Notes under the pieces: generated by a model
What the model was told of the DNA's origin: nothing
What the model saw: the letters and a program-made list of their open reading frames with translations, nothing else
The model's database searches: none
Made by a program: the position numbers and the translations under genes
Source: Polyangiaceae bacterium
GTDB taxonomy: Bacteria > Myxococcota_A > Polyangia > Polyangiales > Polyangiaceae
NCBI GenBank assembly: GCA_036500245.1
Contig: DASYCL010000684.1
Location: forward strand, 1-41,188
Reading direction: 5' to 3'
Length of the DNA: 41,188 nucleotides
In this document: positions 1 to 37,877 of the stretch, piece after piece
How positions within the stretch are numbered: position 1 is the first letter of the stretch
How the letters are laid out: the number at the start of each line of letters is the position of its first letter

Positions 1-1
1 C

Positions 2-808
2 GGAAGCGGCGAGTCGGGGGGCAAAGCCGGCGCGGGCGGCAACGGCAACCCAGCCGGCGCCGGTGGCGCCGCAGGACGCACGGGCAGCGGCGGAACGGGA
101 ACGACGGGTGGCACCACGACCGGCGGTTCCGCAGCTGCGGGCACGACCGGAAGCGGCGGCACGGGCGCCGCAGCAGGTTCCGGCGGCACCACCGCGACGA
201 CTGAGTTGATCGACGATTTCGAGGATCGCGACTTGGTTCTGTTGATGATCAAGAAGCGCAACGGTCCGTGGTACGCCTTCAACGACGGCAGCAAAACCGA
301 CTCGCAAACTTTCGGGATCGCGTTGCTCACTGACGCTGACGCGCGTAGCGGCAGCTCGAGCACCGCGGGATTGCACATGACCGCTGCATCGGGCTTCACG
401 GGCTTCGGCGCGGGCTTCGGCGCGGACTTCGTCAACACCCAAGCCAAGAAGGTGGCGTACGACGTCTCCGCGTACAAGGGCGTGCGCTTCTACGCGAAGA
501 TTGGGTCCGGCGCTCAGAGTGCGATGAAGGTGCTGTTCCCAACTACCTACTCGGATCCGATGGGCGGGAAATGCAACGACGCCGTCGCGATGATGGGTTG
601 TAACGATCACCTGTTCGAACTCGTCACCTCGATCACCACGACGTGGGCCGTCTACGAAGTCGATTTTTCGGATCTGACCCAGCAGGGTTTTGGCTTGCCG
701 CAAGCCTCGCTCGATCCGACCAGCGTCTACAGTGTGCAATTCACGTTGTCGACCGCCGCATTTCCCGCGGACGTCTGGCTCGACGACATCTCTTTCGTGC
801 TGAAGTGA
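2..808 (+). CDS. CBM11-like carbohydrate-binding protein with Gly/Ala/Thr-rich linker (5'-truncated by window edge)
   Basis: The frame of ORF 206..808 is open back to base 2 and encodes a GSGGTG-type linker. The domain carries IDDFED...WYAFND...DVSAYKGVRFYAK...WLDDISF, typical of CBM11/galactose-binding-like folds. Confidence 0.7.
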   Translation, partial: GSGESGGKAGAGGNGNPAGAGGAAGRTGSGGTGTTGGTTTGGSAAAGTTGSGGTGAAAGSGGTTATTELIDDFEDRDLVLLMIKKRNGPWYAFNDGSKTDSQTFGIALLTDADARSGSSSTAGLHMTAASGFTGFGAGFGADFVNTQAKKVAYDVSAYKGVRFYAKIGSGAQSAMKVLFPTTYSDPMGGKCNDAVAMMGCNDHLFELVTSITTTWAVYEVDFSDLTQQGFGLPQASLDPTSVYSVQFTLSTAAFPADVWLDDISFVLK

Positions 809-811
809 GTG

Positions 812-3001
812 CTAGCGCGTGATTGCGTAGGCGAGCGCAGGGATATCGAAACTAGTCGACAATTTCGAATCGTCCGTCGTCGTGATCGGGATGGCGCGGA
901 CGGCTGCGCCTTTGGCGTCGAGTGATCGAGCGTGCCATGCGGCGCGCGGCAGCCTGAGCGTGACGGGAATGAACTGCGCCAGTGCCGGCCCGGCGCCGAG
1001 CGGCCCCACAGTTTGATCAGTCGCGTTCGGGCGATGCGCATTCTCCGCGCGACCGGCCACATTGAACAGCAGGCGGTGCGAATCGCGCAGCGGCAGGCCG
1101 TCCAGTGCGACTAAGGTCGCGCACGCGAAACGATCGGCGAAATTGCCAAATTCGAGGCTGAATTCGCCGAATCTCAGCGCGCTTTGCGCGACCGTGCCGC
1201 AAACCAATTTCAAACCCGGTGCGTCGACGCTGAAGCGCGGATGCTCGCCTCGCGATTCCCAATAGAGCTCGCCCGAATCACTCCCGATCGCGCCGGTGAC
1301 GTGCAACGCGTAGGAAGCAGTCACGCTGCCGCCTCCGTCCCGCAGGGTGATGCCGATCTGCCGCAATGCCGCCGCGGTCTGCGGCACTCCGTTCATGTTC
1401 CAGAGATTCGGTAGAGCGTTCTCGGCGATCGGCAACGCGAGCGGCTGCTTTGGCACGAGTAGCTCGACGCGGCTCGTTCCGGGCGCGACCAGTCCGCCGC
1501 GGAACGCGGTCGCCGCGGCGGCAACGAATGCGAGCTTCGTCGGATGACCTGCGAGATCGAACACACCGTTGATGCGCGTCGGTTCGTATTCGCGTTTTTG
1601 ATCGGCGTAGCTGAAAGCGAACAACGCGTCCCAATCCTGCAAGCCGGCAACGCCGACCAGGAGCGGGAACATCTCCTCGGCGTAGTCGTTGGGCGTGGCG
1701 ACGGCGTACTCCGAGACACTGAACGGCTTACCGAATACGCGGTAGCTGGCCATCACGCCGAGCGTTCCGCCGTCGGCGGCCGTCACTTGCGAGCTGTTTT
1801 GTAGCGACCAGGTCACATCCTTGCCGCTGCCGCTCGAACGCGGGTGATCCCAAAAACCATGCACGTCGACGAAGTCGCTCAGCTCGGCTTCGCGCAATAC
1901 TCCGGCGAGACCGCCGAAGCTCGCTTGGCTGTCGATCAACATGGAGTGCAGTCCGAGCTCGCCGCGAACGAAGCCGGCGAGCTCCTTGACATTGTCGAGC
2001 TCGACCTTGCGCAAGTACTGGACGTAGTCTGCGCGTGCAGCGTCGGATGCTTGGAACGTCGGCAGTACCGGCTTGGCTTCTTCGAGCGCGGGTCCGGGCG
2101 CTCGCAGGCCTTCTGCGGTGCGCTCCGCGAGCCAGGGCGCGTAGCCTTTTTCGAGCTCCGCGCGATAGCTCGCGGGCGCATCATCGGGACTTCCGGCCCA
2201 CGACGGGAAGATCGTGTCCTCGTTGTCGAGTTCGACGTAGAGCAGCGCGGGCTCCGCGCGATACGGAAGCTTGGTCTCGGCGTTTTCGTGACTCAGCAAA
2301 CGCCGCGCACGTTCGCGCTGGGCAGCCAAAAAAGATCGATCAAAGCGATCAAGCACTTTTCCTTGCGGGAAGCGGGCAAGGGCTTCCCCTTCAAGGCCGG
2401 AATACCCGCCGAGCGCGTGCAGCGTAAACGTGAAATAGAGGCCTTGAGCCTTCAACGCGGCCGCAAAGTGATCGAGTTTCGCGACTGACTCGGGGGCAAG
2501 CTCTCCCGTTTCGCCGAACAGCCCGTGTTCGACATCGAGCCCCAGAAGTCGCACTGCGTTGAAGCCGAGCTTCCTCAAGTGCTTCGCGAGGCGGGTCGCG
2601 GTTTCTGGATCGGGAAAGCACGCGACACCCGTGAGGTTGACGCCAAAAAAACGCAATCGCGTTCCGCGATCGTCGACGAAGTGTCCGAGCTCGGCATGCA
2701 CGAAACCGTGCGCGCCTGCGGGTTCGGCATTGAGCGATGAAAGATCGGTGAACGTGTGCTCGTCATCGAGCCCGCTCGGCTCGACTTCGAACAGCTGGAT
2801 CTCAGGGGTTACCGGCGTGGCACCCAGCCCGGATACTGGAAATTTCTGCTCAGTGTGGCAGCCGAAAAACAGCGCGGATGTGAGAAAAATCAGTCGCGCG
2901 CTGTCTGCTACAGAGATTGCGCGAGCGCTATGACCGCGACTATGGTGGGCCGCCCCGTGCGCTCCGGGTCGCTCAATTTGCCTAAAATCATGCTCGAACA
3001 T
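812..3001 (-). CDS. Clan GH-A (GH5-like) glycoside hydrolase, possible lipoprotein; start uncertain (probably downstream of 3001)
   Basis: Motifs RLRFFGVNL, LRKLGFNAVR, ELDNED (NE acid/base), VDVHGFWDHP, FSVSEY (candidate nucleophile Glu), QDWD. Lipobox-like ALFFGC near the N-terminus. Confidence 0.65.
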   Translation of the reverse strand: MFEHDFRQIERPGAHGAAHHSRGHSARAISVADSARLIFLTSALFFGCHTEQKFPVSGLGATPVTPEIQLFEVEPSGLDDEHTFTDLSSLNAEPAGAHGFVHAELGHFVDDRGTRLRFFGVNLTGVACFPDPETATRLAKHLRKLGFNAVRLLGLDVEHGLFGETGELAPESVAKLDHFAAALKAQGLYFTFTLHALGGYSGLEGEALARFPQGKVLDRFDRSFLAAQRERARRLLSHENAETKLPYRAEPALLYVELDNEDTIFPSWAGSPDDAPASYRAELEKGYAPWLAERTAEGLRAPGPALEEAKPVLPTFQASDAARADYVQYLRKVELDNVKELAGFVRGELGLHSMLIDSQASFGGLAGVLREAELSDFVDVHGFWDHPRSSGSGKDVTWSLQNSSQVTAADGGTLGVMASYRVFGKPFSVSEYAVATPNDYAEEMFPLLVGVAGLQDWDALFAFSYADQKREYEPTRINGVFDLAGHPTKLAFVAAAATAFRGGLVAPGTSRVELLVPKQPLALPIAENALPNLWNMNGVPQTAAALRQIGITLRDGGGSVTASYALHVTGAIGSDSGELYWESRGEHPRFSVDAPGLKLVCGTVAQSALRFGEFSLEFGNFADRFACATLVALDGLPLRDSHRLLFNVAGRAENAHRPNATDQTVGPLGAGPALAQFIPVTLRLPRAAWHARSLDAKGAAVRAIPITTTDDSKLSTSFDIPALAYAITR

Positions 3002-3031
3002 CGTCGCTTCGCTGCCTCAGTCAGACGCCTC

Positions 3032-4240
3032 GTGAACCCAACTCATTTGCGCAGAACGATCATCGGCTGCTCGTTGTTGCTGCCGGCTGTCGCGCATGCG
3101 GGGGCGAAGGATCAGATCGCCACCAAGCTCGCGAACCAAGCGATGCAGACGGACTACGTCGGAACGCAGTTCAAAAAAGCCGAACAGAAGCTGAAAAAAG
3201 CGATTCAACAATGTGGTTCGTCCGCGTGTTCGTACGACGTTGTCGGCAGGCTGCACCGCGATTTGGCGACAGTCTACATCGGCGGCACGAACCAAGTCGC
3301 CAAAGGAAAAGCCGAGCTCAAGCTCGCGCTTCAGGCGAACCCGGATCTGCAGCTCGACAACGATCTCGCCACACCCGAGCTGAAGAAAGACTTCAAAGCG
3401 CTCGGCGGCCACGAGCCGAAGCACGAAGACGAAGACAAGGACGACAGCGACGAAAAGCCCGAGAAACCCGCGGCAAAGGACCAAGATAGCGAAGCGGGAG
3501 AGAACGAGGAAAAGCCGGCTCCGCCGCCGTCGGAAGAGTCGTCGAGCGGCGCGCGGAAAAATTGGGTGAGCATCGGTTTCGAGCAAGATTTTTTGGTTTA
3601 CTCGTCGACCAACGACGTCTGCGCCACGAATGGCATCCCGGACTCGAATCCGCCGAGCAATCAGATTTTTCCGGAAGCGCCCGGATACGCGTGCTTCCAG
3701 GGCGGCTCGCAATACGGCTATAGCGCGGGCCAAACGATCTATCCGAACGCGGGCAACCACGTCGGCGCCGGCGTCGGCGTTTCGACCTCGAGCGTGCTGC
3801 TTGGCTTCGATCGCGTGATCGGTTCGAATTTCAGCGTCGGCGCGCGGGTGGGCTTCGCGTTCGGCGGTGGACCGCAGACCCTCGACGGTTCCAAGTTCCT
3901 ACCGCTGCGCCTCGAGATTCGCGGCAACTACTGGTTCGGAAATGATCCGTTTGCGAGCAGCAGCGTGCGCCCCTACGTCGGGCTGTCTGCAGGCGTGGCC
4001 GAGCTCGATGGTCACGTGCCAGTCGAGTACTACCAGGATGCGGCCGGCTATAGCGCGAACAACAAGGGCACACTCGACGCTTGGCGTCGCGCCGGAAAAA
4101 CGTTTGCAGGCTTGGGCTTTGGTTTGATGGTTCCGATTGCGGGTAGCTCCGGCATCGTGCCGGAGCTGCGCGTGAAAGAAATGTTCGGCTCGAGCTCGTT
4201 GGCATTCGACGCTTCGCTCGGCTACGCCTACGGCTTTTGA
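3032..4240 (+). CDS. Secreted/outer-membrane protein: helical TPR-like N-domain, acidic linker, C-terminal beta-barrel-like domain
   Basis: GTG at 3032 gives a signal peptide ending AVAHA. Followed by a helical region, an EDEDKDDSDE linker and amphipathic strands ending LGYAYGF (terminal Phe). The ORF track start at 2756 overlaps the divergent gene. Confidence 0.6.
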   Translation: MNPTHLRRTIIGCSLLLPAVAHAGAKDQIATKLANQAMQTDYVGTQFKKAEQKLKKAIQQCGSSACSYDVVGRLHRDLATVYIGGTNQVAKGKAELKLALQANPDLQLDNDLATPELKKDFKALGGHEPKHEDEDKDDSDEKPEKPAAKDQDSEAGENEEKPAPPPSEESSSGARKNWVSIGFEQDFLVYSSTNDVCATNGIPDSNPPSNQIFPEAPGYACFQGGSQYGYSAGQTIYPNAGNHVGAGVGVSTSSVLLGFDRVIGSNFSVGARVGFAFGGGPQTLDGSKFLPLRLEIRGNYWFGNDPFASSSVRPYVGLSAGVAELDGHVPVEYYQDAAGYSANNKGTLDAWRRAGKTFAGLGFGLMVPIAGSSGIVPELRVKEMFGSSSLAFDASLGYAYGF

Positions 4241-4294
4241 ACGGCAGGATTCAGCGCAAACAGTTCGCTCCCCGCGCGCCATACGCCGACGGTT

Positions 4295-4312
4295 CCTGGA
4301 ACTAGTACCAGG
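4295..4312. promoter_or_regulatory. Palindromic operator-like site 1 (CCTGGAACTAGTACCAGG)
   Basis: Near-perfect 18-bp palindrome in the intergenic region upstream of the CBM11-GH9-GH94 genes. The same motif recurs at five other intergenic positions. Confidence 0.65.
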
Positions 4313-4395
4313 TTCGGTCTTTTCGGCGCGCTCAAGGCACGCTTCGACGCGCTGCGCTGCAGCGCATTCGCCGAGGCCTGGTCGCGGCAGTCGGG

Positions 4396-4411
4396 CTGGA
4401 ACCGATACCAG
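4396..4411. promoter_or_regulatory. Operator-like site 2 (CTGGAACCGATACCAG)
   Basis: 12/14 match to TGGAACCGGTTCCA; core lies exactly 100 bp after site 1. Confidence 0.6.
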
Positions 4412-4531
4412 AAAACTGCCGGCTCGTGGAAAAATTTCGCTCAACTGCAGCCGTGTCAGGCTACTTTCGCGCTCGGTTCATCCGCCCATGTCGTGATCCG
4501 AGCGGCCGCTGGGCTGCGAAATCCCGCAATG

Positions 4532-4545
4532 TGAAATCGGTTCCA
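4532..4545. promoter_or_regulatory. Operator-like site 3 (TGAAATCGGTTCCA) next to -35-like hexamers
   Basis: 12/14 match to the consensus. TTGACG at 4550-4555 and TTGACA at 4585-4590 follow, upstream of ATG 4715. Confidence 0.55.
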
Positions 4546-4714
4546 GGTCTTGACGATTCGTGGTGACTTTGACCGCGGTTTCGGTTGACAGAAACGTACG
4601 GGGAGAAGAACATCGTTGCTCGAGCTCGCGCCGCGATTCGCATGAACTCAGTCGGCCACGTCGACGGTGAACGAGCCAAGTGAGCGAACGCTCGATTTTG
4701 GAGTGACGAACGCG

Positions 4715-5452
4715 ATGAAGGCAACAAAGACGAACGTATGGATGCTCGGTTTGGCTCTCAGCGCTCTGGTGATCGGACTCGGTTGCAAGAAAAAAATCTC
4801 CGCCACCTCCGAAGACGTAAAGAACTCGCCGGAAGGGAAAGCCTGTCCCGCGAGTGAAGGCATGATCTCGGACGGCGAAGCCAACAGCAACCAGATCAAC
4901 CCGATCAAGGGTCGTGGTGGCTATTGGTACACCTTCGTGGACTCGAACGGTTCGACCATCACGCCGACGGCTGGCTCGCAAGGCGGCACGTTCGCGATGT
5001 CGCCGGGCGGTGCCAAGGACACCAAGTACGCTGCGCACATGACGGGCCAAGTCGGAACCGCGGATACGGTTTATGCCGGCATGGGCTTCAACTTCGTGGA
5101 CCCGAAAGGCCAATACGACGCGACTGCGTATAAAGGCATCTCGTTTTGGGCCAAAAAAGGCCCGGGATCGACCGGCAACGTTCGGCTCAAGTTCCCCGAC
5201 TCGAACACCGACCCGGACGGCAAAGTCTGCAAAGAGTGCTTCAACGACTTCGGCATGGATCTGCAGCTGACGGATCAGTGGACGCAGTACGTGATTCCGT
5301 ACGTCGGGATGACGCAGATGAAGGGTTGGGGTTCGCCGCACACGCCGGGCGTCGACACGTCGAAGGTCTACGGCATGCAATGGCAGGTGAACGAGAAGGG
5401 CGCAAAGTTCGACATCTGGGTCGACGAGATTCAGTTCACGGGTTGCCCGTGA
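4715..5452 (+). CDS. CBM11-like carbohydrate-binding lipoprotein
   Basis: GGAG RBS before ATG 4715; lipoprotein signal MKATK...LVIGLGC; motifs GGYWYTFVD, YDATAYKGISFWAK, FDIWVDEIQF; paralogous to the ORF at 2..808. Confidence 0.8.
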   Translation: MKATKTNVWMLGLALSALVIGLGCKKKISATSEDVKNSPEGKACPASEGMISDGEANSNQINPIKGRGGYWYTFVDSNGSTITPTAGSQGGTFAMSPGGAKDTKYAAHMTGQVGTADTVYAGMGFNFVDPKGQYDATAYKGISFWAKKGPGSTGNVRLKFPDSNTDPDGKVCKECFNDFGMDLQLTDQWTQYVIPYVGMTQMKGWGSPHTPGVDTSKVYGMQWQVNEKGAKFDIWVDEIQFTGCP

Positions 5453-5519
5453 TCCCCAGTTGATGCGCGGCGCGTGCACGAGGGCGCGCCGCGCTCAGCG
5501 CGGAGTCGGAGACGAAGCG

Positions 5520-7877
5520 GTGAAGATTGTGCCGGGCGCCCTGCGCGTAGCGAGTGTCTGCGGAGTGTTAATCGCGGGTTGCATTCCGCGCCGCACGCCC
5601 CTACCGAACGGCGCCGTACTGACACGTTCGGATGCCGCGAGTGTGCCGGCCACCGCCGGCAACAATCTGCTCAAAAACAGCTCGTTCGACGGGGGCGTCA
5701 GCTTGCCGTGGATGACCTCGTTCTCTGCGCCCGGTGACGGCAAAGCCGACGTCGTCAATGGTGCGCTGTGCGTCAAGGTGACGAACAAAGGCGCGAACGC
5801 TTGGGACGCGCAGGTTCGTCATCGCGAGATGGTGATTCAGCGGGGTCATACCTATACGGTGCAGTTTCGCGCTTACGCGTCGGCGCCGACGAAGGCGCGG
5901 CCCAAAGTCGGCATGTCCGGCGCGCCATACGCCGAGTACTGGTCATCGACGATCGACGTGGGGACGGAACCGAAGCTCTACAGCGCGGCCTTCACGATGC
6001 GTGGGAACGACGATCCGACGGCGGAGTTTGCCTTCCATATCGGTGGCAACATGGCAGAAGCGTCGACCCCGTTCGACTTCTGCATCGACGACGTGCGGCT
6101 CGATGACCCGGCGTTCACGCCGAGCGCGGACTCCGCGCATATCGTCGCGGTGCCGAATATCCTCGTGAACGAGCTCGGCTATCTGCCGAACGCCGCGAAA
6201 ATTGCGACATTGAAGAGCAATGCGATGACGCCGCTCGAGTGGCAGCTCGTCGATTCATCGGGGAAGGGCGCCGCGAAGGGCAGAACCCAGGTCTTCGGCG
6301 CGGACGCGGCTTCCGGCGACCACCTGCACGAGATTGACTTTAGCGATCTGAAAACGACGGGCGAGGGCTTCACGCTCAAAGTCGAAAGCGACACGAGCTT
6401 GCCGTTTCGGATCGATTCGCATCTCTACAAGAAGCTCAAGTACGATGCGCTGTCGTACTTTTATCAAAATCGCAGCGGCATCGAGATTGCGCCGGCGTTG
6501 GTCGACGATCCATCGCTGGCGCGCCCCGCGGGCCACCTCGGGGACAAGAACGTCAAATGCATGCCGGACAGTGGTTGCGACTACTCGCTCGACGCGAGTG
6601 GCGGTTGGTACGACGCGGGCGACCACGGAAAATACGTGGTGAACGGCGGCATCGCAGTGTGGACACTGCTCAATGAATACGAGCGTGCGAAGTTCCTCGG
6701 CTCGAGCAGCGCCGATTTCGGCGACGGCAAGCTCAAGATCCCGGAGCACAATAACCGGGTCCCCGATCTGCTGGACGAAGCGCGTTGGGAGCTCGAGTTC
6801 ATGCTCAAGATGCAAGTGCCGGCGGGCCAACCCAAGGCCGGGATGGTACATCATAAGCTGACCGATGCGGATTGGACCGGGCTCGGTACCGCTCCGCACG
6901 AAGACAAACTGCCGCGCTATCTGCACGCGCCGAGCACCGCCGCGACGCTCAACCTCGCGGCAACCGCGGCGCAGGCAGCCCGTATTTGGAAAACGATCGA
7001 CGCCGCTTTCTCGGCGAAGTGTCTGGCCGCGGCCGAAACAGCGTGGCTCGCGGCGAAAGCCAACCCCAAGGTTTATGCCTCGGCGAGCGACACTCGAGGC
7101 GGCGGCTCATACGCCGACGAGAACACGAGCGACGAGTTCTACTGGGCGGCGGCCGAGCTGTTCATCACCACCGGCAAGCCGGAATACAAGCAATTCCTCA
7201 ACGCTTCACCGTTCAGCCAACACTTTCGCAGCGCGGCCGGCGGGCACTCGTCGTCGATGAATTGGTCGGATACGGATGCGCTCGGGCAGATTTCGCTCGC
7301 GGTCGTACCGAACGGGCTCGATGCAGGAGCGGTGAAGGAGCTCCGCGCGCGTATCGCCACAGCTGCGGAGCATTACTTGAAAGTCGAGCAGGGCGAAGGC
7401 TATCGCACGCCGCTCGAGCGCAATGCGCAGGGGCAATACGTGTGGGGTTCGAATTCGTTCGTGCTCAATAACTTGATCGTGCTCGCGCTCGCGTACGACT
7501 TCAGCAAAGAACGGCGCTACTTGGACGGTGTCGCGACGGGCATGGACTACTTGCTCGGTCGCAACCCGCTCGCTCAATCCTACGTTTCGGGTTACGGCTC
7601 GAAGCCGCTCGAGAATCCTCATCATCGCTTTTGGGCTTATCAGGCGAACCATAAATATCCGCACGCGCCCGCAGGAGCCGTGTCCGGCGGTCCAAATTCG
7701 AGCGTCGATGATCCTTATGCCAAAGCCGCCGGCTTGCGCGGGTGCGCCGCGGAGAAATGCTTCGTCGATAATATCGAGGCTTATTCGGTCAACGAGATCG
7801 CGATCAATTGGAACGCGCCACTCGCTTGGGTGAGCGCGTTCCTGGACGAAAAAGCGCACGCGAGCGCGCCACAGTAA
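5520..7877 (+). CDS. GH9 cellulase with CBM4/9 and Ig-like (CelD_N) domains, lipoprotein
   Basis: Lipobox VLIAGC after GTG 5520; CBM4 motifs [20 protein letters not shown]; Ig-like VNELGYLP; GH9 signatures [29 protein letters not shown]. Confidence 0.92.
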
Positions 7878-7944
7878 TGTTCGCAAACGAGAACGAGAGC
7901 CTTCGTCAGTAGTTTCAATCAGCCCCTTTTGGAGCCTCAAAGTC

Positions 7945-10380
7945 ATGCGTTTTGGTCATTTCGACGACAGCAACAAAGAATACGTCATCACCACGCCGAA
8001 GACTCCGTACCCGTGGATCAACTACCTCGGCACCGAGAACTTTTTCGGGCTCGTCTCCCACCAGGGCGGCGGTTATTGCTTCTATCGGGACGCGCGGCTG
8101 CGTCGCCTGACGCGCTACCGCTACAACAACGTGCCGACCGATTCGGGCGGTCGCTATTTCTACATCAACGAGGGCGGGGACGCCTGGACGCCGACCTTCA
8201 TGCCGATGAAGAAAGAGCTCGAGTCATTCGAGTGTCGGCATGGACTCGGCTACACGCGCATCGCTGGCAAGCGCAATGGGCTCCGCGCCGAAGTCCTTTA
8301 TTTCGTGCCGCTCGGTGAGACGGCTGAAGTGCATCAAGTGACGTTGAAGAACGAGAGCGCGAGCGCGAAGAAGTTCAAACTGTTCTCGTTCATCGAGTTC
8401 TGCCTGTGGAACGCCCACGACGATGCGACCAACTTCCAGCGCAACTTCAGCACCGGTGAAGTCGAAGTCGACGGCAGCACGATCTATCACAAGACCGAAT
8501 ATCGCGAGCGCCGCGACCACTTTGCATTTTATCACGTGAACGCGAAGGTTGCGGGTTTTGACACCGATCGCGAGTCGTTCATCGGGGTTTACAACGGCTT
8601 TGGTGATCCGGACGTGCCGCTTGCCGGCGAGTCGAAAAATACGGTTGCGAGTGGCTGGTCTCCGATTGCGTCGCACGGTCTCGATGTCTCGCTCGCGCCG
8701 GGCGAGGAAAAGACGTTCGTGTTCGTGCTCGGCTATGTCGAAAATGCGCGCGATGAGAAGTGGGAAAAGCCGGGCATCATCAACAAGACGCGCGCCAAGG
8801 CACTGATCGCAAAATTTTCGAGCGCGGAGCAAGTGAGCGCTGCGCTCGCCAAGCTACGCGAGCATTGGAACGGCATGCTCTCGACTTATGCGATCGAGTC
8901 GAGCGACGAAAAACTGAATCGGATGGTCAATATCTGGAATCCGTATCAGTGCATGGTCACGTTCAACATGTCGCGCAGCGCGTCGTATTTCGAGTCGGGC
9001 ATCGGGCGCGGCATGGGCTTTCGGGATTCGAACCAGGATTTGCTCGGCTTCGTGCACCTCGTGCCGGAACGCGCGCGCGAACGCATCATCGACATTGCCT
9101 CGACGCAATTCGCCGACGGCAGCGCGTACCATCAGTATCAACCGCTGACCAAGCGCGGCAACAATGACGTCGGCAGCGGTTTCAACGACGACCCGCTGTG
9201 GCTCATTTTGGGCGTCTCCGCATACATCAAGGAGACCGGCGATTATGGCATTTTGGACGAGCAAGTGCCGTTCGACAACGACACCAAGAATCAAGCAAGC
9301 TTGCTCGAGCATTTGAAGCGCTCGTTCGATCATGTGACCAACAATCTCGGGCCGCACGGCTTGCCGCTGATCGGCCGCGCGGATTGGAACGATTGTTTGA
9401 ATCTGAATTGCTTCTCCGAAACGCCGGACGAGCCGTTTCAAACCACGGGCAATCGCACCGGGCGCACGGCGGAGTCCGTGTTCATCGCGGGCATGTTCGT
9501 GCACATCGGACCGGAGTACGCGAAGATCGCGGAGTACAAGGGTCAAAAGGCAGAAGCCGAGCGCGCGCGCAGCGAAGTCGTGAAGATGGAAAAAACCGTG
9601 CTCGCGCACGGCTGGGACGGCCAATGGTTCCTGCGTGCGTACGATTTCTTCGGCAAGAAGATCGGCAGCAAGGATTGCCCCGAAAGCGACGCGCAAATTC
9701 TGATCGAGCCGCAAGGCTATTGCGTCATGGCCGGCATCGGCGTGGCGACGGGCGAGGCTAAAAAAGCACTCGATTCAGTCAAAGAGCGACTCGATACGCG
9801 TTACGGCATCGTGCTCAATAACCCGCCGTACCGCGACTATCACGTCGAGCTCGGCGAGATCTCGTCATACCCGCCGGGTTACAAAGAGAACGCGGGCATC
9901 TTCTGCCACAATAACCCCTGGGTGATGATCGCGGAGACGGTGATCGGGCGTGGCGAGCGCGCCTTCGAATACTACAAGAAGATCGCGCCCGCCTACATCG
10001 AGGACATCAGCGAGATCCATCGCACCGAGCCGTACGTGTACTCGCAGATGATCGCGGGCAAAGACGCCGTGCATCACGGCGAAGCCAAAAACTCCTGGCT
10101 CACCGGCACCGCGGCTTGGAACTTCGTCGCGATCTCGCAGTACCTGCTCGGCATTCGCCCGGAGTGGGACGGCTTGTGTGTGAAGCCGTGTATCGGCAAA
10201 GAGGTGGCGGAGTTCACCGTCACGCGCAAGTGCCGTGGCGCGACGTACCGCATTCGAGTCAAGAGCTCGGGTGGGACGGGCAACGTGAAACTCACAGTCG
10301 ACGGCAAAGCCATTTCCGGCCACCTCGTGCCATACGCGAAGGCGGGCAGCACCGTGAACATCGAGTGCGAAGCGAGCTGA
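7945..10380 (+). CDS. cbp: Cellobiose phosphorylase (GH94)
   Basis: 811 aa; N-terminus [81 protein letters not shown], all as in known cellobiose phosphorylases. No signal peptide. Confidence 0.93.
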
Positions 10381-10389
10381 ATCCGCGCG

Positions 10390-10407
10390 CCTGGAACCAG
10401 TTCTAGG
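10390..10407. promoter_or_regulatory. Operator-like site 4 (CCTGGAACCAGTTCTAGG)
   Basis: Palindrome 10 bp after the GH94 stop and ~75 bp before the vWA gene; 12/14 match to the consensus. Confidence 0.65.
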
Positions 10408-10430
10408 AAAATGCGTTAACAATCTCCGAC

Positions 10431-10458
10431 GGAGCACGGGACTTGTGGCCCGTGCTCC
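10431..10458. other. Perfect 10-bp stem hairpin (GGAGCACGGG-N8-CCCGTGCTCC): terminator or 5'-UTR structure
   Basis: Inverted repeat visible between the GH94 and vWA genes; no U-tract on the + strand. Confidence 0.45.
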
Positions 10459-10480
10459 CGGAAAAAGCTAAGCTACGCAC

Positions 10481-11725
10481 ATGAGTAGTCTGCGGACGCA
10501 GCGCTTTTGCGGCGCGCTTGGTCTCGGCTTGGGCGTGGGGTTGTTGCTAGCTACGGCGTGCAGCGCGAACAAGGGTGCGCCGGGCAGCGCGGTGCGCCCG
10601 GGTGGAACTGGTGCCGGAACGGGCGCGGGTGGCACCGGTACCGGGGTCGGTGCGGGCTCCGGCGACGGCAACACCGGCAACATCAACACCGCGAGCGGTG
10701 GCACCAGTGGCACGGACGCGGGCGCTTGTCAGAGTATGGAGCTCGACTTCACTCCAAAGACTCCGACGGTGTTCGTGTTGGTCGATCGCTCGGGCAGCAT
10801 GTTCGAAGCGCCGAATCCGCCGTGGGAGCCGCTCAAGATGGGCGCCTTGCAGGTGATCCAAGAACTTCAGAATGACGTCGCGTTTGGTTGGGGCGCGTTT
10901 ACCGGTCAAGCCGGCGTGAAGTGCCCGGATTTCGCGTCGGTCCCGCCAGCCAAGAACAACTACGACGCGATCAACATGGTCTACGGAACCATGGGTGCGA
11001 CCGGATATAAGTCGGAAACGCCAGTCGGCGAAGCGCTGCCGCTCGCGGCGCAAGCGCTCGCGCAATCACCGGAAGATGGCAACAAGTACATCTTGTTCGT
11101 GACCGACGGTCAGCCCGACTTCTGCGACGACGGCGACGAAAATTGCCCGTTGGACGACGTCGTCTATCAGCTTCAAAAGCTCAATAAAACCGGGATCAAC
11201 ACGATCATCTTCGGTTTGCAGAATGGCAACGTGCCGCCGCAGACGCTGCAGGCATTCGCCAACGCTGGCGCCGGACAACCCGTTGCGGCTCCGTTCACGG
11301 GCACCGCGATGGATGTCTACTACTCGTGCCAGAGCGAAGCGGGCTGGAAGGCGGACTACGCCGAGGCCGGCGTCACGGGCATGAGTGCGGTCGCCGCCTA
11401 TGCGGCGACCGGCGGAATGACGAAGTACTATTCACCCGATGTGACGGACCAAGATGCGTTAACGACGCAGCTTCGCACCGTGCTCGCTGGCGTGAAGAGC
11501 TGCTTGTTCGATCTGAGCAAGTTCACGATCGATCTCAACGGGTTGGACCAAGCGTCGGTCCTCGTGCAGGGGCAAACCGTGCCGCTGGATTCGACCAACG
11601 GTTGGCGCATGAATTCCGAGTCGCAACTCGAACTCGTGGGTTCGGCCTGCACCAATTGGCAACAGCCGCAAAACACCAAGATCGACTTCAATTTCCCGTG
11701 TGACATCGTCACTGTCGTGAGGTGA
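10481..11725 (+). CDS. von Willebrand factor A domain lipoprotein
   Basis: Lipobox LLATAC, Gly/Thr linker, MIDAS motif VLVDRSGSM...ETP...FVTDGQP, Cys-containing C-terminal region typical of myxobacterial vWA proteins. Confidence 0.85.
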   Translation: MSSLRTQRFCGALGLGLGVGLLLATACSANKGAPGSAVRPGGTGAGTGAGGTGTGVGAGSGDGNTGNINTASGGTSGTDAGACQSMELDFTPKTPTVFVLVDRSGSMFEAPNPPWEPLKMGALQVIQELQNDVAFGWGAFTGQAGVKCPDFASVPPAKNNYDAINMVYGTMGATGYKSETPVGEALPLAAQALAQSPEDGNKYILFVTDGQPDFCDDGDENCPLDDVVYQLQKLNKTGINTIIFGLQNGNVPPQTLQAFANAGAGQPVAAPFTGTAMDVYYSCQSEAGWKADYAEAGVTGMSAVAAYAATGGMTKYYSPDVTDQDALTTQLRTVLAGVKSCLFDLSKFTIDLNGLDQASVLVQGQTVPLDSTNGWRMNSESQLELVGSACTNWQQPQNTKIDFNFPCDIVTVVR

Positions 11726-11814
11726 AGCTCGCGGTCAGCGCGTAGGAGCGCTGAGCCGCTTGACGTCCGATTGGGTCGGTGACGGGTTTGCGGACTTAGG
11801 TCGCTTTGCAAGCG

Positions 11815-11838
11815 AATGGCACCTCGTCAGGTGCCATT
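11815..11838. terminator. Hairpin between convergent genes (AATGGCACCT-CGTC-AGGTGCCATT)
   Basis: Perfect 10-bp stem with a 4-nt loop between the stop codons at 11725 and 11875; lacks a clear U-tract. Confidence 0.5.
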
Positions 11839-11874
11839 GCCATTCATCATTGCGACTAGGCGAAGTCGGAACTC

Positions 11875-13740
11875 TCACCACCACATGGTGGCTTCGATCT
11901 TGAACACGTTCTCGTCTGGGGTGAACGTCGGAGCGCCGCGCATGTTGGTCTGCGAAATCGGCGAAGCGCCGAAACCAGTCGGCGGAACTGGCGAGGACGG
12001 CGGCTGGGCACAGAATTCCTGGCCCGGTGTGTAGACGCCGGTCGCGGGGTTCACCGGCATGCCGTTCACGGGGTTACAAGTGCGCTTGTTGTACATGTAG
12101 CGCGAGTATTGGAGCGTGATCGCTTCGCGCGTGAGCCACTTCGACTTGAACACCAGCCGTGGTGAGAGAATCGAGAAGGATTGCTCCGGAATGCGGCTGT
12201 TCGGTTGCAAGCGATCGAAGCGTACGGCAGCGGTAAGCCAGGGTAGGGCCGACCAAGCCAAATCGGCGCCGTACTTGAGCTTGTGAATGCCGTTGATCGC
12301 GTCCACGTCGCTCTTCACCTTGTTGTACATGCCGTAGAGCTTCAGATAGAGATCGGGGCCGTCCCCCCAGAATTTCTGCCCGCCGGAGCTCATCTGCGAG
12401 AAGTTCGTGAGGCTGAACTCGTATTGCGCGAGCAAGGTGTCCACGCCGCCATTGCCGAGGCTGCACTGTTCTCCCATCATGTAGAAGGCTGGGCTGCGCG
12501 CCGCAGCATCTCCAACGCAGCTCGGCCCGAGGTAGTTGTCCACCATGCCGAGACCGAATTCACCGCCGCCCGAGGCGTGGATCACTTCGATCGCGCGACT
12601 CACCGTAAGCGCATCCTTCAATCCAACATGCGAGTACGCGGCGTATAAGTACCCCATCGCACCGAGATCGAAGCGGCCGTCCACACCAGCGGTCCACATT
12701 TTGCCGTCCCCGATATCGTAAATCGAGGTAGCCGTGTTGCCGCCCGTCGGCAGAGGCGTTGTAAAACCGCCGGTCTCGAGCCCAGCGCCCGTCCGCATTT
12801 CTTCGGACGACCATGAGTCCATGTAGTGCGCCGAGAATTGAATTGCCTCCGTGTGCTTGAATCCCACGTGGAAGTGGTCGAGCATCGTGAAACGCGCGTT
12901 GTTGAACTGGCTCGGATCGGGTTTTTTCACGCCGATACCGTGCTCGAACCAGAGTGAGTTCTCTTCGTCGATGTCGTAATCGATGTGCAGCGCTTCACCG
13001 GAGTTGTGAATGCGGCCGAACATGTACGTGTCGTACTCGCCGGCGTCGTACTTACCGGCCGAACCGTATTTGTTCGAGAACGATCCAACGCGCCATGCCA
13101 GCCGGACATTTTCGTAACCGAGGTCCGGAGTGAGATCGATGTAGCCGTCTGATACGCCGAGCTGCGACGCCGCGTTAGCAAACGAGCCCTGATAAAAATC
13201 GTAGCCCTGGATTGACACGGTGCCTTTCGCCCAGGAGTTACCGAGCGAGATGTAAAGCTCGGCCCAGTCCGTTTTATTGTGCGGATTGCTGGCCCAGCTC
13301 AGGTACTGGTCATCGGGAATGACTGGCGCGTGGAGCGAAGTTCCCGTTGCGGCGTTGGGGTACATCGGGTCCGCCACGCGCTTGCCCATGCCAACGCGCA
13401 TCGGCGCGCGGATGTAGCCGTGGTATTCGAACTTCCAGCTGTCGTCGTCTTTGGCGACAGCGGGGCCGGAGACGTTGGTCACTGCGCCCCCTTCGGTCGC
13501 TTTGGCCTTTGCCGCGGGCGTCGTTTCCGGAGTCACCGGAGACGGGGCCGGGTTTGCTTTCGACGGCTCGGCGGGCGGTGCGGGCTCGGAATCGGGCGCT
13601 GGGCCTTCCGGCTTCGGGGCCGGCGTTGTGTCTTTGAGTTCGACCTTGTCGGGCGGCGGAGCAGTCGGCGCCGCATCCTGCGCGGCCGCCGGGACGGCGA
13701 AAAAGAGACCCGAAAAGAAAATGAGGGAGAGTTTACGCAT
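11875..13740 (-). CDS. Outer-membrane beta-barrel protein, candidate LamB-like carbohydrate porin
   Basis: Sec signal ending PAAA-Q, Pro/Ala-rich linker, barrel start WKFEYHGYIRA (compare LamB VDFHGYARS), aromatic-rich alternating strands, C-terminus FKIEATMWW (LamB ends in ...EIWW). Confidence 0.6.
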   Translation of the reverse strand: MRKLSLIFFSGLFFAVPAAAQDAAPTAPPPDKVELKDTTPAPKPEGPAPDSEPAPPAEPSKANPAPSPVTPETTPAAKAKATEGGAVTNVSGPAVAKDDDSWKFEYHGYIRAPMRVGMGKRVADPMYPNAATGTSLHAPVIPDDQYLSWASNPHNKTDWAELYISLGNSWAKGTVSIQGYDFYQGSFANAASQLGVSDGYIDLTPDLGYENVRLAWRVGSFSNKYGSAGKYDAGEYDTYMFGRIHNSGEALHIDYDIDEENSLWFEHGIGVKKPDPSQFNNARFTMLDHFHVGFKHTEAIQFSAHYMDSWSSEEMRTGAGLETGGFTTPLPTGGNTATSIYDIGDGKMWTAGVDGRFDLGAMGYLYAAYSHVGLKDALTVSRAIEVIHASGGGEFGLGMVDNYLGPSCVGDAAARSPAFYMMGEQCSLGNGGVDTLLAQYEFSLTNFSQMSSGGQKFWGDGPDLYLKLYGMYNKVKSDVDAINGIHKLKYGADLAWSALPWLTAAVRFDRLQPNSRIPEQSFSILSPRLVFKSKWLTREAITLQYSRYMYNKRTCNPVNGMPVNPATGVYTPGQEFCAQPPSSPVPPTGFGASPISQTNMRGAPTFTPDENVFKIEATMWW

Positions 13741-13847
13741 GGGGTTTCGTTCCTGAGTCGATCGCCGACTATCCTAACGGCCGAACCCGCTCATGGTCCT
13801 GACCGTGCTCTATTCCTATCAGAGTCGGAACGGAGTCGAAAGACAAA

Positions 13848-13865
13848 TGTGGAAACAGTTCCACA
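13848..13865. promoter_or_regulatory. Operator-like site 5 (TGTGGAAACAGTTCCACA)
   Basis: 18-bp near-palindrome ~110 bp upstream of the porin-like gene start. Confidence 0.65.
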
Positions 13866-13916
13866 CGCGTGCGGCCTGGATTCGCCTGGATACCGCCCTA
13901 CTTGCAAAAGTGAAGC

Positions 13917-13930
13917 TGGAACCGGTTGCT
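13917..13930. promoter_or_regulatory. Operator-like site 6 (TGGAACCGGTTGCT)
   Basis: 12/14 match to the consensus, 67 bp from site 5. Confidence 0.5.
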
Positions 13931-14164
13931 GGATTCGGCTGGTGATCAATTCTGCTCGCGTTTTGCGCAGAATTGCGCGGGAATTAGCTGCCCTTACTAT
14001 CGAGCAACGCGCGCGGACGCGCGAGAAATTCGCGGCATGCGTGGCTCGGGCCCGGCACAGCGACAAGCTTCGCGGCGCAGCACTTTCGCAGCAAGGGCGA
14101 CACTTCTTGCGCGAGACTCTCGCCGTGTGGAGTCGAGTGAGCTCGGATGTTTGGGTGTTTGGCT

Positions 14165-14517
14165 CCTGCCGATTCATCACATCTCCGGCTCTTCTTTTCG
14201 CGCCGGAGCGCGCGCGAAGGCTGGCAACCGAATGCCCTTCTTTCGCACCGGAGCGGCGCGCGAACGCCGGCAGCCGAATGCCCGGAAATAAAACCTGCCG
14301 ATTCATCACATCTCGATCTCTTCTTTCGCGCCGGAGCGCGCGCGAAGGCCGGCAGCCGAATGCCCGGAAATAAAACAAAGCCAGCAGGTTCGCGCGGCTG
14401 ATCACGGTTCTGGAATGATGGGCGGCCACGTTAGAACTGACCGAACAGGCGCCAGTCGCGTCGCTCGATGCGCGAGTGGCCAAGCGCCGTGCTAGCCCAG
14501 GGCCCCAAAACATCCCC
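14165..14517. repeat. Modular dispersed repeat, copy A (three REP-like units plus a ~120-bp tail)
   Basis: TTTCGCGCCGGAGCGCGCGCGAAGG..GGCA.CCGAATGCCC units at ~14196, ~14241 and ~14324. CCTGCCGATTCATCACATCTC occurs twice (14165, 14294). The tail 14396-14517 aligns with 23038-23211. Confidence 0.8.
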
Positions 14518-14659
14518 AATGCAGCGCGTGTGCGTGCTGCGCGCCCCGCGTTCGCGAAACCCAAAAACAAGCCGAGAGACCGACTCCGCGCCACGTAGTA
14601 TACGAGTCACGCGACAATCCCGGGCAGCTTCGCCCGCGTGTTTCCCGCCGAGTGGCTCG

Positions 14660-15949
14660 ATGTTCGGTTTGTCTCGCTATCAATGGTTGGTGCTGTTCGC
14701 GGCTTGGCTCGGCTGGGGCTTCGACGTGTTCGACGGGCTTTTGTTCAACTTCGTCTCGCCGATTTGCGTGCCGAATTTGCTGCATTTGTCGGCGAACGAT
14801 CCGTCGTTTCGCGCTGTCTTGTTCAAACACACGGCGACGCTCACGAGCTTGCTCTTGCTCGGCTGGGCCACGGGCGGAATCGTGTTCGGGCGGATCACGG
14901 ACAAGCTCGGTCGCACACGCACGCTCCTGATCACGATGCTGACCTACGCGCTGTCGACAGCGGCTTGCGCGTTCGCGTCGAACTTGACGATGCTCGGCGT
15001 ATTTCGTTTTTTCGCGAGCCTCGGCATTGGCGGTGAGTGGGCGGCGGGCGCCGCGCTCGTGGCCGAGTCGCTGCCGTTCCAAAAACGCGTGCTCGGCGGC
15101 GCGTTGCTTTACACGTCGGCGCCGGTGTTTTTGTTCTTGGCGACGTTCGTCAATTCGCTCTTCACGAGCAAGCTCGCGAGCATCGCGGCGAACCCCAATT
15201 TGTCCTGGCGTGTCGTGTTTTTGACTGGGCTCGTGCCGGCGATTGTAGCGGTGATCATTCGGCTGCGCGTGCACGAGCCCGAGGGATTCGAGAAAGCGCG
15301 CGAAACGCCGCGCATCGCCGAGTTGTTCACGCCGGAGTATCGCAGCCGCACCCTCGGCGGTTTCGCGCTGGCTTTGGTTGCGCTCGTGACTTGGTGGAGC
15401 TGCAGCGCGTTCATCCCGGCGATTTCTTCGTTTCTCGCGGGGGGCCGTGCGACGCTCCGCGTCGAGTACGTCACGCGCGGCACGACTTGGTTCAACCTGG
15501 GCGGGCTGATCGGCACCATGCTCACGGTCCCGCTCGCGACCAAGCTCGGTCGGCGCAAGATGTTCATGACGTACTACGCGTTCGGCGCGCTCGCCGTCGC
15601 AGGCACATTTGGGCTGCCACTCGAGCCAGAAATTCGCCTGATTTCGATGTTCACGGTCGGGCTCTCGGTGTTCGGCGTGTTCGGCGCGTTCACCTACTAC
15701 TTGCCGGAGCTGTTCCCGGCGCGGCTACGCGGCACGGGTTCCGGCTTTTGCTACAACGTCGGGCGGATCATCACTGCGTTTTTTCCGTGGGTGATGTCGC
15801 TGGTGACGAAGCCCGGCGTCGATCCGCTGAGGATCGTGGTTTGGGTGGCGCTCGCTCCGGCACTCGGCGTGATCGCGCTGCTCTGTGGGGTCGGGCTCGA
15901 GACGCGCGGCTTCGACGCGGACGCTGAGCTCGCGCGCTCCGTGAAGTGA
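14660..15949 (+). CDS. MFS transporter
   Basis: ATG 14660; WLGWGFDVFD, motif A GRITDKLGRTR, GIGGEW, ELFPARLRGTGSGFCYNVGR; about 12 hydrophobic segments. Confidence 0.9.
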   Translation: MFGLSRYQWLVLFAAWLGWGFDVFDGLLFNFVSPICVPNLLHLSANDPSFRAVLFKHTATLTSLLLLGWATGGIVFGRITDKLGRTRTLLITMLTYALSTAACAFASNLTMLGVFRFFASLGIGGEWAAGAALVAESLPFQKRVLGGALLYTSAPVFLFLATFVNSLFTSKLASIAANPNLSWRVVFLTGLVPAIVAVIIRLRVHEPEGFEKARETPRIAELFTPEYRSRTLGGFALALVALVTWWSCSAFIPAISSFLAGGRATLRVEYVTRGTTWFNLGGLIGTMLTVPLATKLGRRKMFMTYYAFGALAVAGTFGLPLEPEIRLISMFTVGLSVFGVFGAFTYYLPELFPARLRGTGSGFCYNVGRIITAFFPWVMSLVTKPGVDPLRIVVWVALAPALGVIALLCGVGLETRGFDADAELARSVK

Positions 15950-15950
15950 A

Positions 15951-17253: not shown

Positions 17254-17359
17254 TTGAGGCTCCCTATCAACGTATGCCGTTCGTGCCCGGCGAGTTACTC
17301 GATCGGACGCATCCCTGGCCCCAAGGGCCGAGAGGAATGCTACTAATGGAAGGTCGAGC

Positions 17360-37844: not shown

Positions 37845-37877
37845 CGATCGCGCGTCCTTCGCCGTGAACTACGTCAC

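What the first reader, a model, noticed from the sequence alone, without database searches (positions are those of the whole stretch)
2..15949. PUL-like cellulose/cellodextrin utilisation system built on lipoproteins and a porin instead of SusC/SusD
Seen in sequence: two non-catalytic CBM11-like proteins, a lipid-anchored CBM4-Ig-GH9 cellulase, a GH-A hydrolase, cytoplasmic GH94 cellobiose phosphorylase, a vWA lipoprotein, a LamB-like barrel and an MFS transporter are clustered, and several share one operator motif. Established: GH9 releases cello-oligomers and GH94 phosphorolyses cellobiose in the cytoplasm. Inference: this is a cell-surface-tethered bind/cut/import/phosphorolyse pathway in a myxobacterium, with no cohesin/dockerin or TonB-dependent receptor in this window. 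The MFS link is the weakest, because a repeat element separates it from the operators.
Basis: partly seen in the sequence, partly recalled or inferred. Interest (0 to 1): 0.75.

Follow-up and report, generated by a model that had tools for sequence, protein, structure and literature searches.

The report
Porin-based plant-glycan loci in myxobacteria
An uncultured myxobacterium groups cellulose-cutting enzymes, a cellobiose-splitting enzyme and predicted lipid-anchored sugar-binding proteins around an unnamed outer-membrane channel predicted to look like maltoporin; related channels recur in many relatives, often beside enzymes for other plant polysaccharides, so these bacteria likely import plant sugars without the energised SusC/SusD importers known from gut bacteria.

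Summary
Confirmed and extended. The window (a Polyangiaceae MAG) encodes CBM11-fold lipoproteins, a lipoprotein CBM4-Ig-GH9, cellobiose phosphorylase, a GH148-like glucanase, a vWA lipoprotein and a barrel with no Pfam match, modelled as an 18-stranded maltoporin fold (Z 23.5). A LacI-type palindrome precedes three units and is conserved upstream of the porin in 26 of 29 syntenic loci. Linkage survives across genera: 41 of 61 genomes with the phosphorylase have the porin within 16 kb, as do 18 of 20 with GH48. The porin family is expanded (up to 18 matches per genome); 15 of 26 porin loci in five genomes have an adjacent co-oriented CBM11-like gene (0.26 expected), and paralogues mark xylan, mannan-like and pectin loci. 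The MFS is probably a bystander; the inner-membrane step, surface exposure, transport and co-induction are untested. One genus of large complete genomes, probably Sorangium, lacks the porin. It works like the maltose regulon or a PUL but is a member of neither. No description was found in the searched literature; this scan noted the same system once in another genome. New variant of a known kind.

The parts
2..808 (+). CBM11-like protein with Gly/Thr linker, 5' end cut by the contig edge; orthologues begin with a lipoprotein-type signal
   Evidence: profile E 9e-58
812..3001 (-). GH148-like (clan GH-A) predicted lipoprotein glucanase without the CBM4 insertion; start codon uncertain (about 2900-3001); accessory
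3032..4240 (+).
4297..4545 (.). Three palindromic operator-like sites (4297 with 3 mismatches; 4397 and 4532 with 2) upstream of the CBM-GH9-GH94 unit
4715..5452 (+). Stand-alone CBM11-fold predicted lipoprotein (245 aa), the most constant partner of the phosphorylase and porin
5520..7877 (+). Predicted lipoprotein CBM4-Ig-GH9 cellulase, CbhA/CelK-type architecture, no dockerin
7945..10380 (+). GH94 cellobiose phosphorylase, no signal peptide
10392..10405 (.). Operator-like site 89 nt upstream of the vWA gene
10481..11725 (+). vWA-domain predicted lipoprotein with a DxSxS motif; weak similarity to CglB (E 1.7e-7, far below cut-off); accessory (21 of 79 loci)
11875..13740 (-). Unnamed outer-membrane barrel: signal peptide, Pro/Ala-rich extension, predicted 18-stranded maltoporin-like fold ending in an invariant Trp-Trp
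13850..13930 (.). Two operator-like sites (13850, 13917), 110 and 177 nt upstream of the porin; conserved in relatives
14165..14385 (.). Genome-wide interspersed repeat; not part of the system
14660..15949 (+). MFS transporter closest to aromatic-acid/sialate symporters; probably not the cellobiose importer

Best explanation
The region is a conserved cellulose/beta-glucan locus whose predicted lipid-anchored CBM11-like proteins and GH9 likely bind and cut glucan at the cell envelope, whose predicted maltoporin-fold channel likely lets cellobiose and short cellodextrins diffuse through the outer membrane, and whose cellobiose phosphorylase would split the product in the cytoplasm, all likely under a LacI-type operator. 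Shown: gene content, enzyme families, lipoprotein-type signals, conserved linkage across genera, the operator footprint, and the family-wide pairing of porin and CBM11-like genes. Predicted by modelling: the two folds. Inferred: outward-facing lipoproteins, passive TonB-independent passage, substrate size, LacI-type repression relieved by cellobiose. The inner-membrane importer is not fixed in the locus (different MFS or ABC systems in different genera) and in this genome is probably encoded elsewhere. Paralogous porins likely do the same job for other glycans, so the family acts as the marker of a myxobacterial kind of polysaccharide utilisation locus.
For: Fold: best matches maltoporin Z 23.5 (rmsd 3.8, 368 aligned) and sucrose porin 22.2, next family 18.0; CBM11 Z 17.0. 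Linkage: 41 of 61 genomes with the phosphorylase orthologue have a porin hit within 16 kb on the same contig, 10 of 11 genera, and 61 of 61 hold the family; 18 of 20 GH48 genomes; 16 of 20 porin loci from 15 other genera hold GH9, GH48 or GH94; GH1 replaces GH94 in Polyangium, Byssovorax-MAG loci. Lipoprotein-type signals in GH9, GH48, vWA, CBM and GH148-like orthologues. Operator upstream of the porin in 26 of 29 syntenic loci, 30 permuted palindromes 0-7; 8 of 45 ORFs downstream of genome-wide sites are glycoside hydrolases or lyase-like against 0 of 68 random ORFs. Paralogues: 15 of 26 loci have an adjacent co-oriented CBM11-like gene, 0.26 expected; 6 of 9 sampled paralogue loci hold GH/PL/CE genes for other glycans; the cellulose-locus porins form one clade (SH-aLRT 99, quick tree).
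Against: No transport, localisation or expression data. Only 11% identity to LamB and no sequence-level match. 12 of 48 well-flanked close homologues have none of the queried cellulases nearby, and 29 of 90 porin-bearing genomes lack the phosphorylase. Genus g60 (complete 11-15 Mb genomes) has GH9, CBM11-like and GH94 genes scattered and no porin match (0 of 12 by protein; 0 of 5 by profile), so the channel is not needed by every relative with these enzymes. Polyangium and Minicystis carry the locus though a review names only Sorangium and Byssovorax as cellulose decomposers (PMC6164225). The genome also has 9 TonB-dependent barrel matches. Lipoprotein-type signals are common among this organism's secreted proteins, and such proteins may face the periplasm. 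Within the genus, housekeeping neighbours are as syntenic as the enzymes (GATase 29, helicase 27 of 79).
Confidence: 0.68

Rival explanations
1. Periplasm-first variant: the lipoproteins face the periplasm (or travel in outer-membrane vesicles); the porin admits soluble cello-oligomers and mixed-linkage glucan fragments made by other enzymes or organisms, and the CBM11-like proteins act as periplasmic catchers. The locus would serve scavenging rather than attack on insoluble cellulose.
For: CBM11, CBM4 and GH148 prefer single or mixed-linkage glucan chains (PMC5725463 passages; 6r31 title). Carriers include genera not named as cellulose decomposers. No GH48 in this genus (0 of 12). No surface-targeting signal was tested.
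Against: CbhA-type GH9, and in other genera GH48 and GH6, act on polymer too large for a porin (established knowledge); long Gly/Ser/Thr linkers after the lipid anchor suit reach beyond the membrane; the same operator precedes GH6, GH45, GH12 and CBM3 genes.
Confidence: 0.17
2. The barrel is not a sugar channel but a surface platform or exporter that displays or anchors the CBM, GH9 and vWA lipoproteins (comparable to barrel-lipoprotein display in myxobacterial gliding, recalled); sugars enter by TonB-dependent or general porins.
For: The tightest family-wide partner is a lipoprotein gene; porins are often tandem pairs (16 of 26 loci); long Cys-bearing loops; other 18-stranded barrels such as AlgE and Wzi also score; vWA protein weakly resembles CglB.
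Against: Maltoporin and sucrose porin stand 4-5 Z units above other barrels; in some loci the porin is next to sugar ABC or SSF importers and cytoplasmic GH1/GH94, which fits import; conserved Arg/His/Asp/Glu in predicted strands suit a polar lumen.
Confidence: 0.1
3. The cluster is loose: an ordinary carbohydrate-enzyme island inherited with its neighbours, in which the porin has no functional tie to the enzymes.
For: Housekeeping genes are co-syntenic within the genus; gene order and orientation vary; MFS, vWA and GH148-like genes come and go.
Against: The porin-enzyme link persists where the housekeeping neighbours differ, the porin has its own conserved operator, and separate paralogue clades repeat the association with other glycans.
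Confidence: 0.05

Closest known systems
E. coli maltose system (LamB, MalEFGK2; maltodextrin phosphorylase MalP recalled)
   Same: Sugar porin of the 18-stranded LamB fold (predicted here), diffusion through the outer membrane then an inner-membrane importer (PMC13543919 passages), cytoplasmic phosphorolysis, one regulon.
   Different: No sequence match to LamB; beta-linked substrate, which native LamB restricts (PMC7797564 passage); lipid-anchored polymer-cutting enzymes and CBM11-like proteins; many paralogues per genome for different glycans.
Bacteroidota polysaccharide utilisation loci (SusC/SusD)
   Same: Clustered outer-membrane importer, non-catalytic glycan-binding lipoproteins and lipoprotein hydrolases; repeated importer-plus-binding-protein gene pairs, often tandem, marking loci for different glycans.
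   Different: No TonB-dependent transporter in the locus and no SusD match in the genome (genome 80% complete); the binding protein has a CBM11 fold; passage would be passive; in this window the CBM gene is 6.4 kb from the porin.
Vibrio chitin cascade (chitoporin ChiP, GH94 chitobiose phosphorylase; recalled, search found no paper with all terms)
   Same: Polymer cut outside, oligomer through a specific porin, GH94 phosphorolysis inside.
   Different: Chitoporin is a 16-stranded porin and scores lower; free chitinases; substrate here is glucan.
Acetivibrio (Clostridium) thermocellus CbhA/CelK, CBM11 of CelH, cellobiose phosphorylase
   Same: Closest solved relatives of the GH9, CBM and GH94 proteins.
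   Different: No dockerin in the GH9 and no cohesin match in the genome; lipid anchor instead; diderm envelope.
GH148 EngU (PMC5725463)
   Same: Acid/base Glu pair four residues apart in an N-E motif and a downstream S/T-E-Y nucleophile motif; distant homologues carry an inserted CBM4.
   Different: No CBM4 insertion; lipoprotein-type signal; not aligned directly to EngU.
Myxobacter sp. AL-1 cel9-cel48 cluster (PMC2635677, search listing and start of abstract only)
   Same: GH9 beside GH48, as in 11 of 79 porin loci.
   Different: Described as extracellular cellulases; no importer mentioned in what I saw.

Membership tests
Bacteroidota PUL (Sus-like) | Adjacent SusC-type TonB-dependent transporter and SusD gene | tested here: not met
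   No such match among the 33 window ORFs scanned; SusD family 0 matches in the 80% complete genome, control rings in Bacteroides
Bacteroidota PUL (Sus-like) | Lipoprotein hydrolases and glycan-binding proteins clustered with the importer | tested here: met
   Lipoprotein-type signals by inspection of orthologues and clustering; surface exposure itself untested
Bacteroidota PUL (Sus-like) | Substrate-induced co-transcription | not testable with these tools
   Shared conserved operator only
LamB sugar porin family | 18-stranded outer-membrane beta-barrel of maltoporin fold | tested here: met
   Model pLDDT 83.9, 18 long strands by my count, Z 23.5 to 1mpr; a prediction, not a structure
LamB sugar porin family | Sequence match to the LamB family | tested here: not met
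   0 of 33 members match a LamB model at E 0.1; profile finds no porin in PDB sequences
LamB sugar porin family | Aromatic greasy slide lining the pore | tested here: inconclusive
   37 conserved aromatic columns, but no coordinates were available to map them to the lumen
LamB sugar porin family | Homotrimer; sugar-specific conductance | not testable with these tools
GH94 cellobiose phosphorylase | Full-length high similarity to characterised cellobiose phosphorylases, above other GH94 activities | tested here: met
   1318 bits against 434 (chitobiose) and 146 (4zle)
CBM11 | CBM11 beta-sandwich fold | tested here: met
   Z 17.0 to 1v0a, 15.5 to the CIA30-type 7zkq; Foldseek top four rows are CBM11
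CBM11 | Sequence match to the family model | tested here: inconclusive
   Window proteins get none; 4 of 120 listed homologues carry PF03425; profile to CtCBM11 E 8e-5
CBM11 | Beta-glucan binding | not testable with these tools
   Needs a binding assay
GH148 | Clan GH-A catalytic Glu motifs as in EngU | tested here: met
   Invariant E218 and E222, near-invariant E392 against EngU E235/E239 and E581; motif comparison only
GH148 | Direct homology to EngU | not tested
   EngU sequence was not fetched
Cellulosome | Cohesin/dockerin assembly | tested here: not met
   No dockerin in the GH9; cohesin 0 matches in the 80% complete genome

The most novel reading that the evidence does not exclude
Polyangiaceae have their own, TonB-free counterpart of the SusC/SusD paradigm: an expanded family of maltoporin-fold channels, often tandem, each physically partnered with CBM11-fold surface lipoproteins that feed glycan fragments to the pore, with separate clades for cellulose, xylan, mannan and pectin. 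The porin would be a marker gene for an overlooked guild of uncultured soil cellulose degraders spanning at least 25 genera.
Probability: 0.35. Interest if true: 0.87.

Novelty: new variant of a known kind. Interest (0 to 1): 0.7.

Why it matters
Polyangiaceae are labelled in soil cellulose isotope experiments (PMC8545098 passages), yet how myxobacteria take up plant sugars is not described in the papers I found. The locus names a concrete candidate channel, binding protein and operator, present in cultured strains (Polyangium fumosum DSM 14668, Minicystis rosea DSM 24000). PUL predictors keyed on SusC/SusD or Pfam would miss it, since the porin and most CBM11-like proteins have no family match. 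A natural beta-glucoside porin is also of use: outer-membrane entry limited cellobiose growth of engineered E. coli (PMC7797564).

Tried and rejected
MFS as the cellobiose importer: rejected as unlikely. Repeat at 14165-14385 as a regulatory RNA or part of the system: it is an interspersed repeat with at least 50 similar copies listed, and Rfam gave 0 matches in 1-17000. Single-sequence PDB searches for the CBM, GH148-like and vWA proteins gave nothing meaningful. The 3032-4240 family got no family or PDB match. Raw genome-wide motif count is not by itself unusual: 53 sites against 2-292 for 30 permuted palindromes; only the share outside ORF bodies (41 of 53 against 21% pooled, at most 40% among 14 controls with 20 or more hits) stands out. 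Promoter/terminator scan was uninformative. The regulator was not identified: 3 LacI-family matches, none in the locus. No RNA holder was listed. The careful tree did not finish; the quick tree is cited. Literature searches finding no description of this system: 0 papers; 4, none on myxobacterial porins by listing; listings; term look-ups in PMC12093494 (porin, GH94, lipoprotein 0 occurrences) and PMC13543919 (no myxobacteria). Supplements were not read and subscription papers are not in the library.
Full report
Setting. The window is contig C684 of an 80% complete, 4.9% contaminated MAG. Named close homologues are from Polyangiaceae MAGs. Real reading frames were chosen by third-position GC and translated.

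Gene content. 5520-7877 is CBM4-Ig-GH9, closest to CbhA among solved structures (592 bits), with a lipoprotein-type signal kept in orthologues. 7945-10380 is cellobiose phosphorylase (1318 bits against 434 for chitobiose phosphorylase) without a signal peptide. 4715-5452 and 2-808 have no Pfam match, but a 112-sequence profile finds only C. thermocellum CBM11 in PDB (E 8e-5) and the model (pLDDT 91.4) matches CBM11 best (Z 17.0, rmsd 2.6, 159 aligned; CIA30-type next at 15.5). 812-3001 is clan GH-A: its profile hits GH5 mannanases, distant homologues carry GH5 and CBM4 labels, and invariant E218/E222 and near-invariant E392 match the EngU motifs in PMC5725463 (passages), so it is GH148-like without the CBM4 insertion. 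10481-11725 is a vWA lipoprotein. 14660-15949 is an MFS whose best matches are aromatic-acid and sialate symporters, all below cut-off.

The barrel. 11875-13740 has no Pfam, NCBIfam or PDB sequence match. A model from 92 sequences (pLDDT 83.9, pTM 0.86) has 18 long strands by my count. Foldseek ranks LamB and sucrose porin first; the second look gives maltoporin Z 23.5 (rmsd 3.8, 368 aligned, 11% identity), sucrose porin 22.2, and the next family 18.0. All 33 aligned members end in Trp-Trp, as LamB does (recalled). The family holds 775 clusters at 50% identity, occurs in 33 of 36 genomes of the genus with up to 18 matches, 91 of 251 genomes and 25 of 75 genera of the family, and 17 of 301 genomes across the phylum. 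Tallies include G034 and G273, flagged unpublished; both are among the 61 below and unlinked, so without them the count is 41 of 59.

Operator. A 14-base palindrome fitting the LacI-type pattern (pattern recalled) occurs 6 times in the window at up to 2 mismatches against 0.06 expected, five of them upstream of the CBM-GH9-GH94 unit, the vWA gene and the porin; none lies at 1-4296. As the consensus came from these sites, I tested it elsewhere. It lies within 950 nt upstream of the porin hit in 26 of 29 loci that share this genomic context, against 0-7 for 30 permuted palindromes, and in 2 of 49 other loci (kin are not independent). Of 53 genome-wide sites 41 are outside ORF bodies, against 21% for controls; the raw count is not unusual. 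I fetched 38 of the 47 sites outside the window, favouring intergenic ones. Of 45 ORFs starting downstream, 8 match GH45, GH6, GH12, GH3 (2), alpha-1,3-glucanase or Cip1-like (2) at E 1e-10 or better, against 0 of 68 random ORFs (Fisher p 4e-4); a CBM3 protein and a porin paralogue (C64) also follow sites. Three LacI-family genes exist elsewhere. The element between operators and MFS is a genome-wide repeat.

Linkage. In 20 loci of the same genus the CBM11-like, phosphorylase and porin core recurs while GH9, vWA, MFS (5 of 20) and the GH148-like gene (2 of 20) vary; housekeeping neighbours are also syntenic there, so I went outside the genus. Of 75 other family genomes with a GH94 match I set aside 12 of genus g60 (54% identity) and 2 with only distant paralogues; all 61 remaining hold the porin family, and 41 have a listed porin hit within 16 kb on the same contig, in 10 of 11 genera (a lower bound, since 250 porin hits were not listed and many contigs are short). 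29 of 90 porin genomes lack the phosphorylase. All 20 GH48 genomes are porin genomes and 18 have the two within 16 kb. Of 20 porin loci from 15 other genera, 16 hold GH9, GH48 or GH94, mostly with different flanking genes. Among 79 loci from the GTDB scan (8-kb flanks, often cut): CBM11-like 49, GH9 34, GH94 31, vWA 21, the 3032-4240 family 12, GH48 11, this MFS 9, another MFS 8, family-5 ABC binding protein 5; 36 of 48 well-flanked loci hold a queried cellulase, phosphorylase or GH1 and 12 do not. Named carriers include Polyangium fumosum, P. jinanense, Minicystis rosea and a Byssovorax MAG, where porin, CBM11-like gene and GH9 (GH48 in Minicystis) run in one direction and GH1 often stands in for GH94 (L117, L118, L122-L124, L127, L136).

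The family as a locus marker. In five contiguous, porin-rich genomes that I chose, 42 porin matches form 26 loci, 16 of them tandem; 15 have a CBM11-like match within 1.2 kb, all on the same strand (0.26 expected from density), and 21 within 10 kb (1.47 expected) (CBM threshold E 1e-5). Nine paralogue loci from three genomes: GH10/GH3/GH67 (L206), GH44/GH2/LacI (L207), GH5/CE2 (L209), PL14 (L210), pectate lyases/GH88-like/UxaE (L213), GH5 (L214), sugar ABC with isomerase (L212), and two without a recognised enzyme (L208, L211). Of 11 loci from other families, 7 have a sugar-related neighbour (GH15, GH13, deacetylase, sugar ABC parts, TrmB, SSF) and 4 none recognised. In a quick tree of 51 rows the window's porin lies in a clade of 28 rows, mostly from cellulose loci (SH-aLRT 99), apart from the paralogues. 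The own genome has further paralogues on C418, C956, C15 and C64, those on C418 and C956 beside CBM11-like genes. In the window itself the CBM gene is 6.4 kb from the porin, and only 14 of 79 close loci have it directly downstream, so strict SusC/SusD-like adjacency is a family tendency, not a rule.

Against. Genus g60, complete genomes of 11-15 Mb (a size typical of Sorangium as I recall; not verified), has no porin match and scattered GH9, CBM11-like and GH94 genes. A review names only Sorangium and Byssovorax as cellulose decomposers while expecting more uncultured ones (PMC6164225 passages), so cultured carriers such as Polyangium may not attack cellulose. The genome has 9 TonB-dependent barrel matches, though no SusD or cohesin match. 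Lipoprotein-type signals are common in this organism and do not show which side of the membrane a protein faces.

Mechanism. Most likely, anchored CBM11-like proteins and CBM4 hold glucan chains at the envelope (inferred); anchored GH9, with GH148-like and regulon enzymes, releases cellobiose and short dextrins (family knowledge); these diffuse through the maltoporin-fold channel (inferred from fold and context); an importer encoded elsewhere crosses the inner membrane (open; a MalK-type ATPase is adjacent in L005, L007 and L023 and sits on C956 here); cellobiose phosphorylase yields glucose and glucose-1-phosphate (established). Confidence 0.68, with periplasmic scavenging 0.17, display platform 0.10, loose cluster 0.05.

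Known systems and novelty. It works like the maltose regulon (PMC13543919 passages) and like a PUL, but fails the SusC/SusD test and the LamB sequence test. Papers seen: PMC12093494 (term look-up and cellulose section), PMC8545098, PMC5725463, PMC6164225, PMC13543919, PMC7797564 (passages), others as listings only. No description of this porin family or locus was found in searches; supplements and subscription journals were not seen. An earlier AI note of this scan (e1-9964517) reached a similar reading in another genome; I saw it after forming mine and do not count it as support. Verdict: real, new variant of a known kind, interest 0.7.

Noticed in passing
G000:C214:1-2489 (L047): Second copy of lipoprotein + CBM11-like (66%) + phosphorylase (88%, cut) in the order seen in L011; probably a contaminant contig from a related strain, or a duplication.
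   Followed up: partly
G000:C956 and C418 (L044, L045): MalK-type ATPase, two CBM11/CIA30-like lipoprotein genes, then a porin paralogue that appears split between the two contigs, a second porin and another CBM11-like gene; in L005 and L007 the ATPase sits next to the window's first CBM gene, so this cassette may lie just left of the window (no exact end overlaps found).
   Followed up: partly
window 15951-17361: Molybdopterin oxidoreductase plus PepSY-TM pair stays beside the porin in about 20 of 79 loci, more often than the MFS; probably plain synteny with the GATase and helicase genes.
   Followed up: partly
window 29354-29367: Sixth operator-like site at the start of an SMP-30/gluconolactonase gene; homologues lie near the porin in 6 of 79 loci.
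   Followed up: no
L049:4664, L052:398: The operator precedes DUF1552/DUF1592 gene pairs at two places in the genome, hinting at a link of these uncharacterised proteins to glycan use.
   Followed up: no
L067:2461-2485: Two operator sites in tandem before a winged-helix regulator cut by the contig end; another candidate for the regulator or a target.
   Followed up: no
L028, L032, L035, L036: Loci of other genera that lack the operator often carry a histidine kinase with a LacI-type sugar-binding domain, a possible alternative sensor.
   Followed up: no
L011:8231-9121, L028:17656-19998: Two further lipoprotein families without Pfam match recur beside the porin (12 and 11 of 79 loci).
   Followed up: no
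window 14165-14385: Composite interspersed repeat with many copies across the genome; no Rfam match.
   Followed up: partly
window 37624-41188: AcrB-family gene in two overlapping frames covering profile positions 4-588 and 609-1020, a split or frameshifted gene or an assembly error.
   Followed up: no
window 30218-32038: 606-aa multi-pass membrane protein with no Pfam or NCBIfam match.
   Followed up: no
L024, L025, L029, L033, L036: GH48 enzymes with lipoprotein-type signals next to the porin; GH48 found in 20 of 251 family genomes and none of genus g60.
   Followed up: yes
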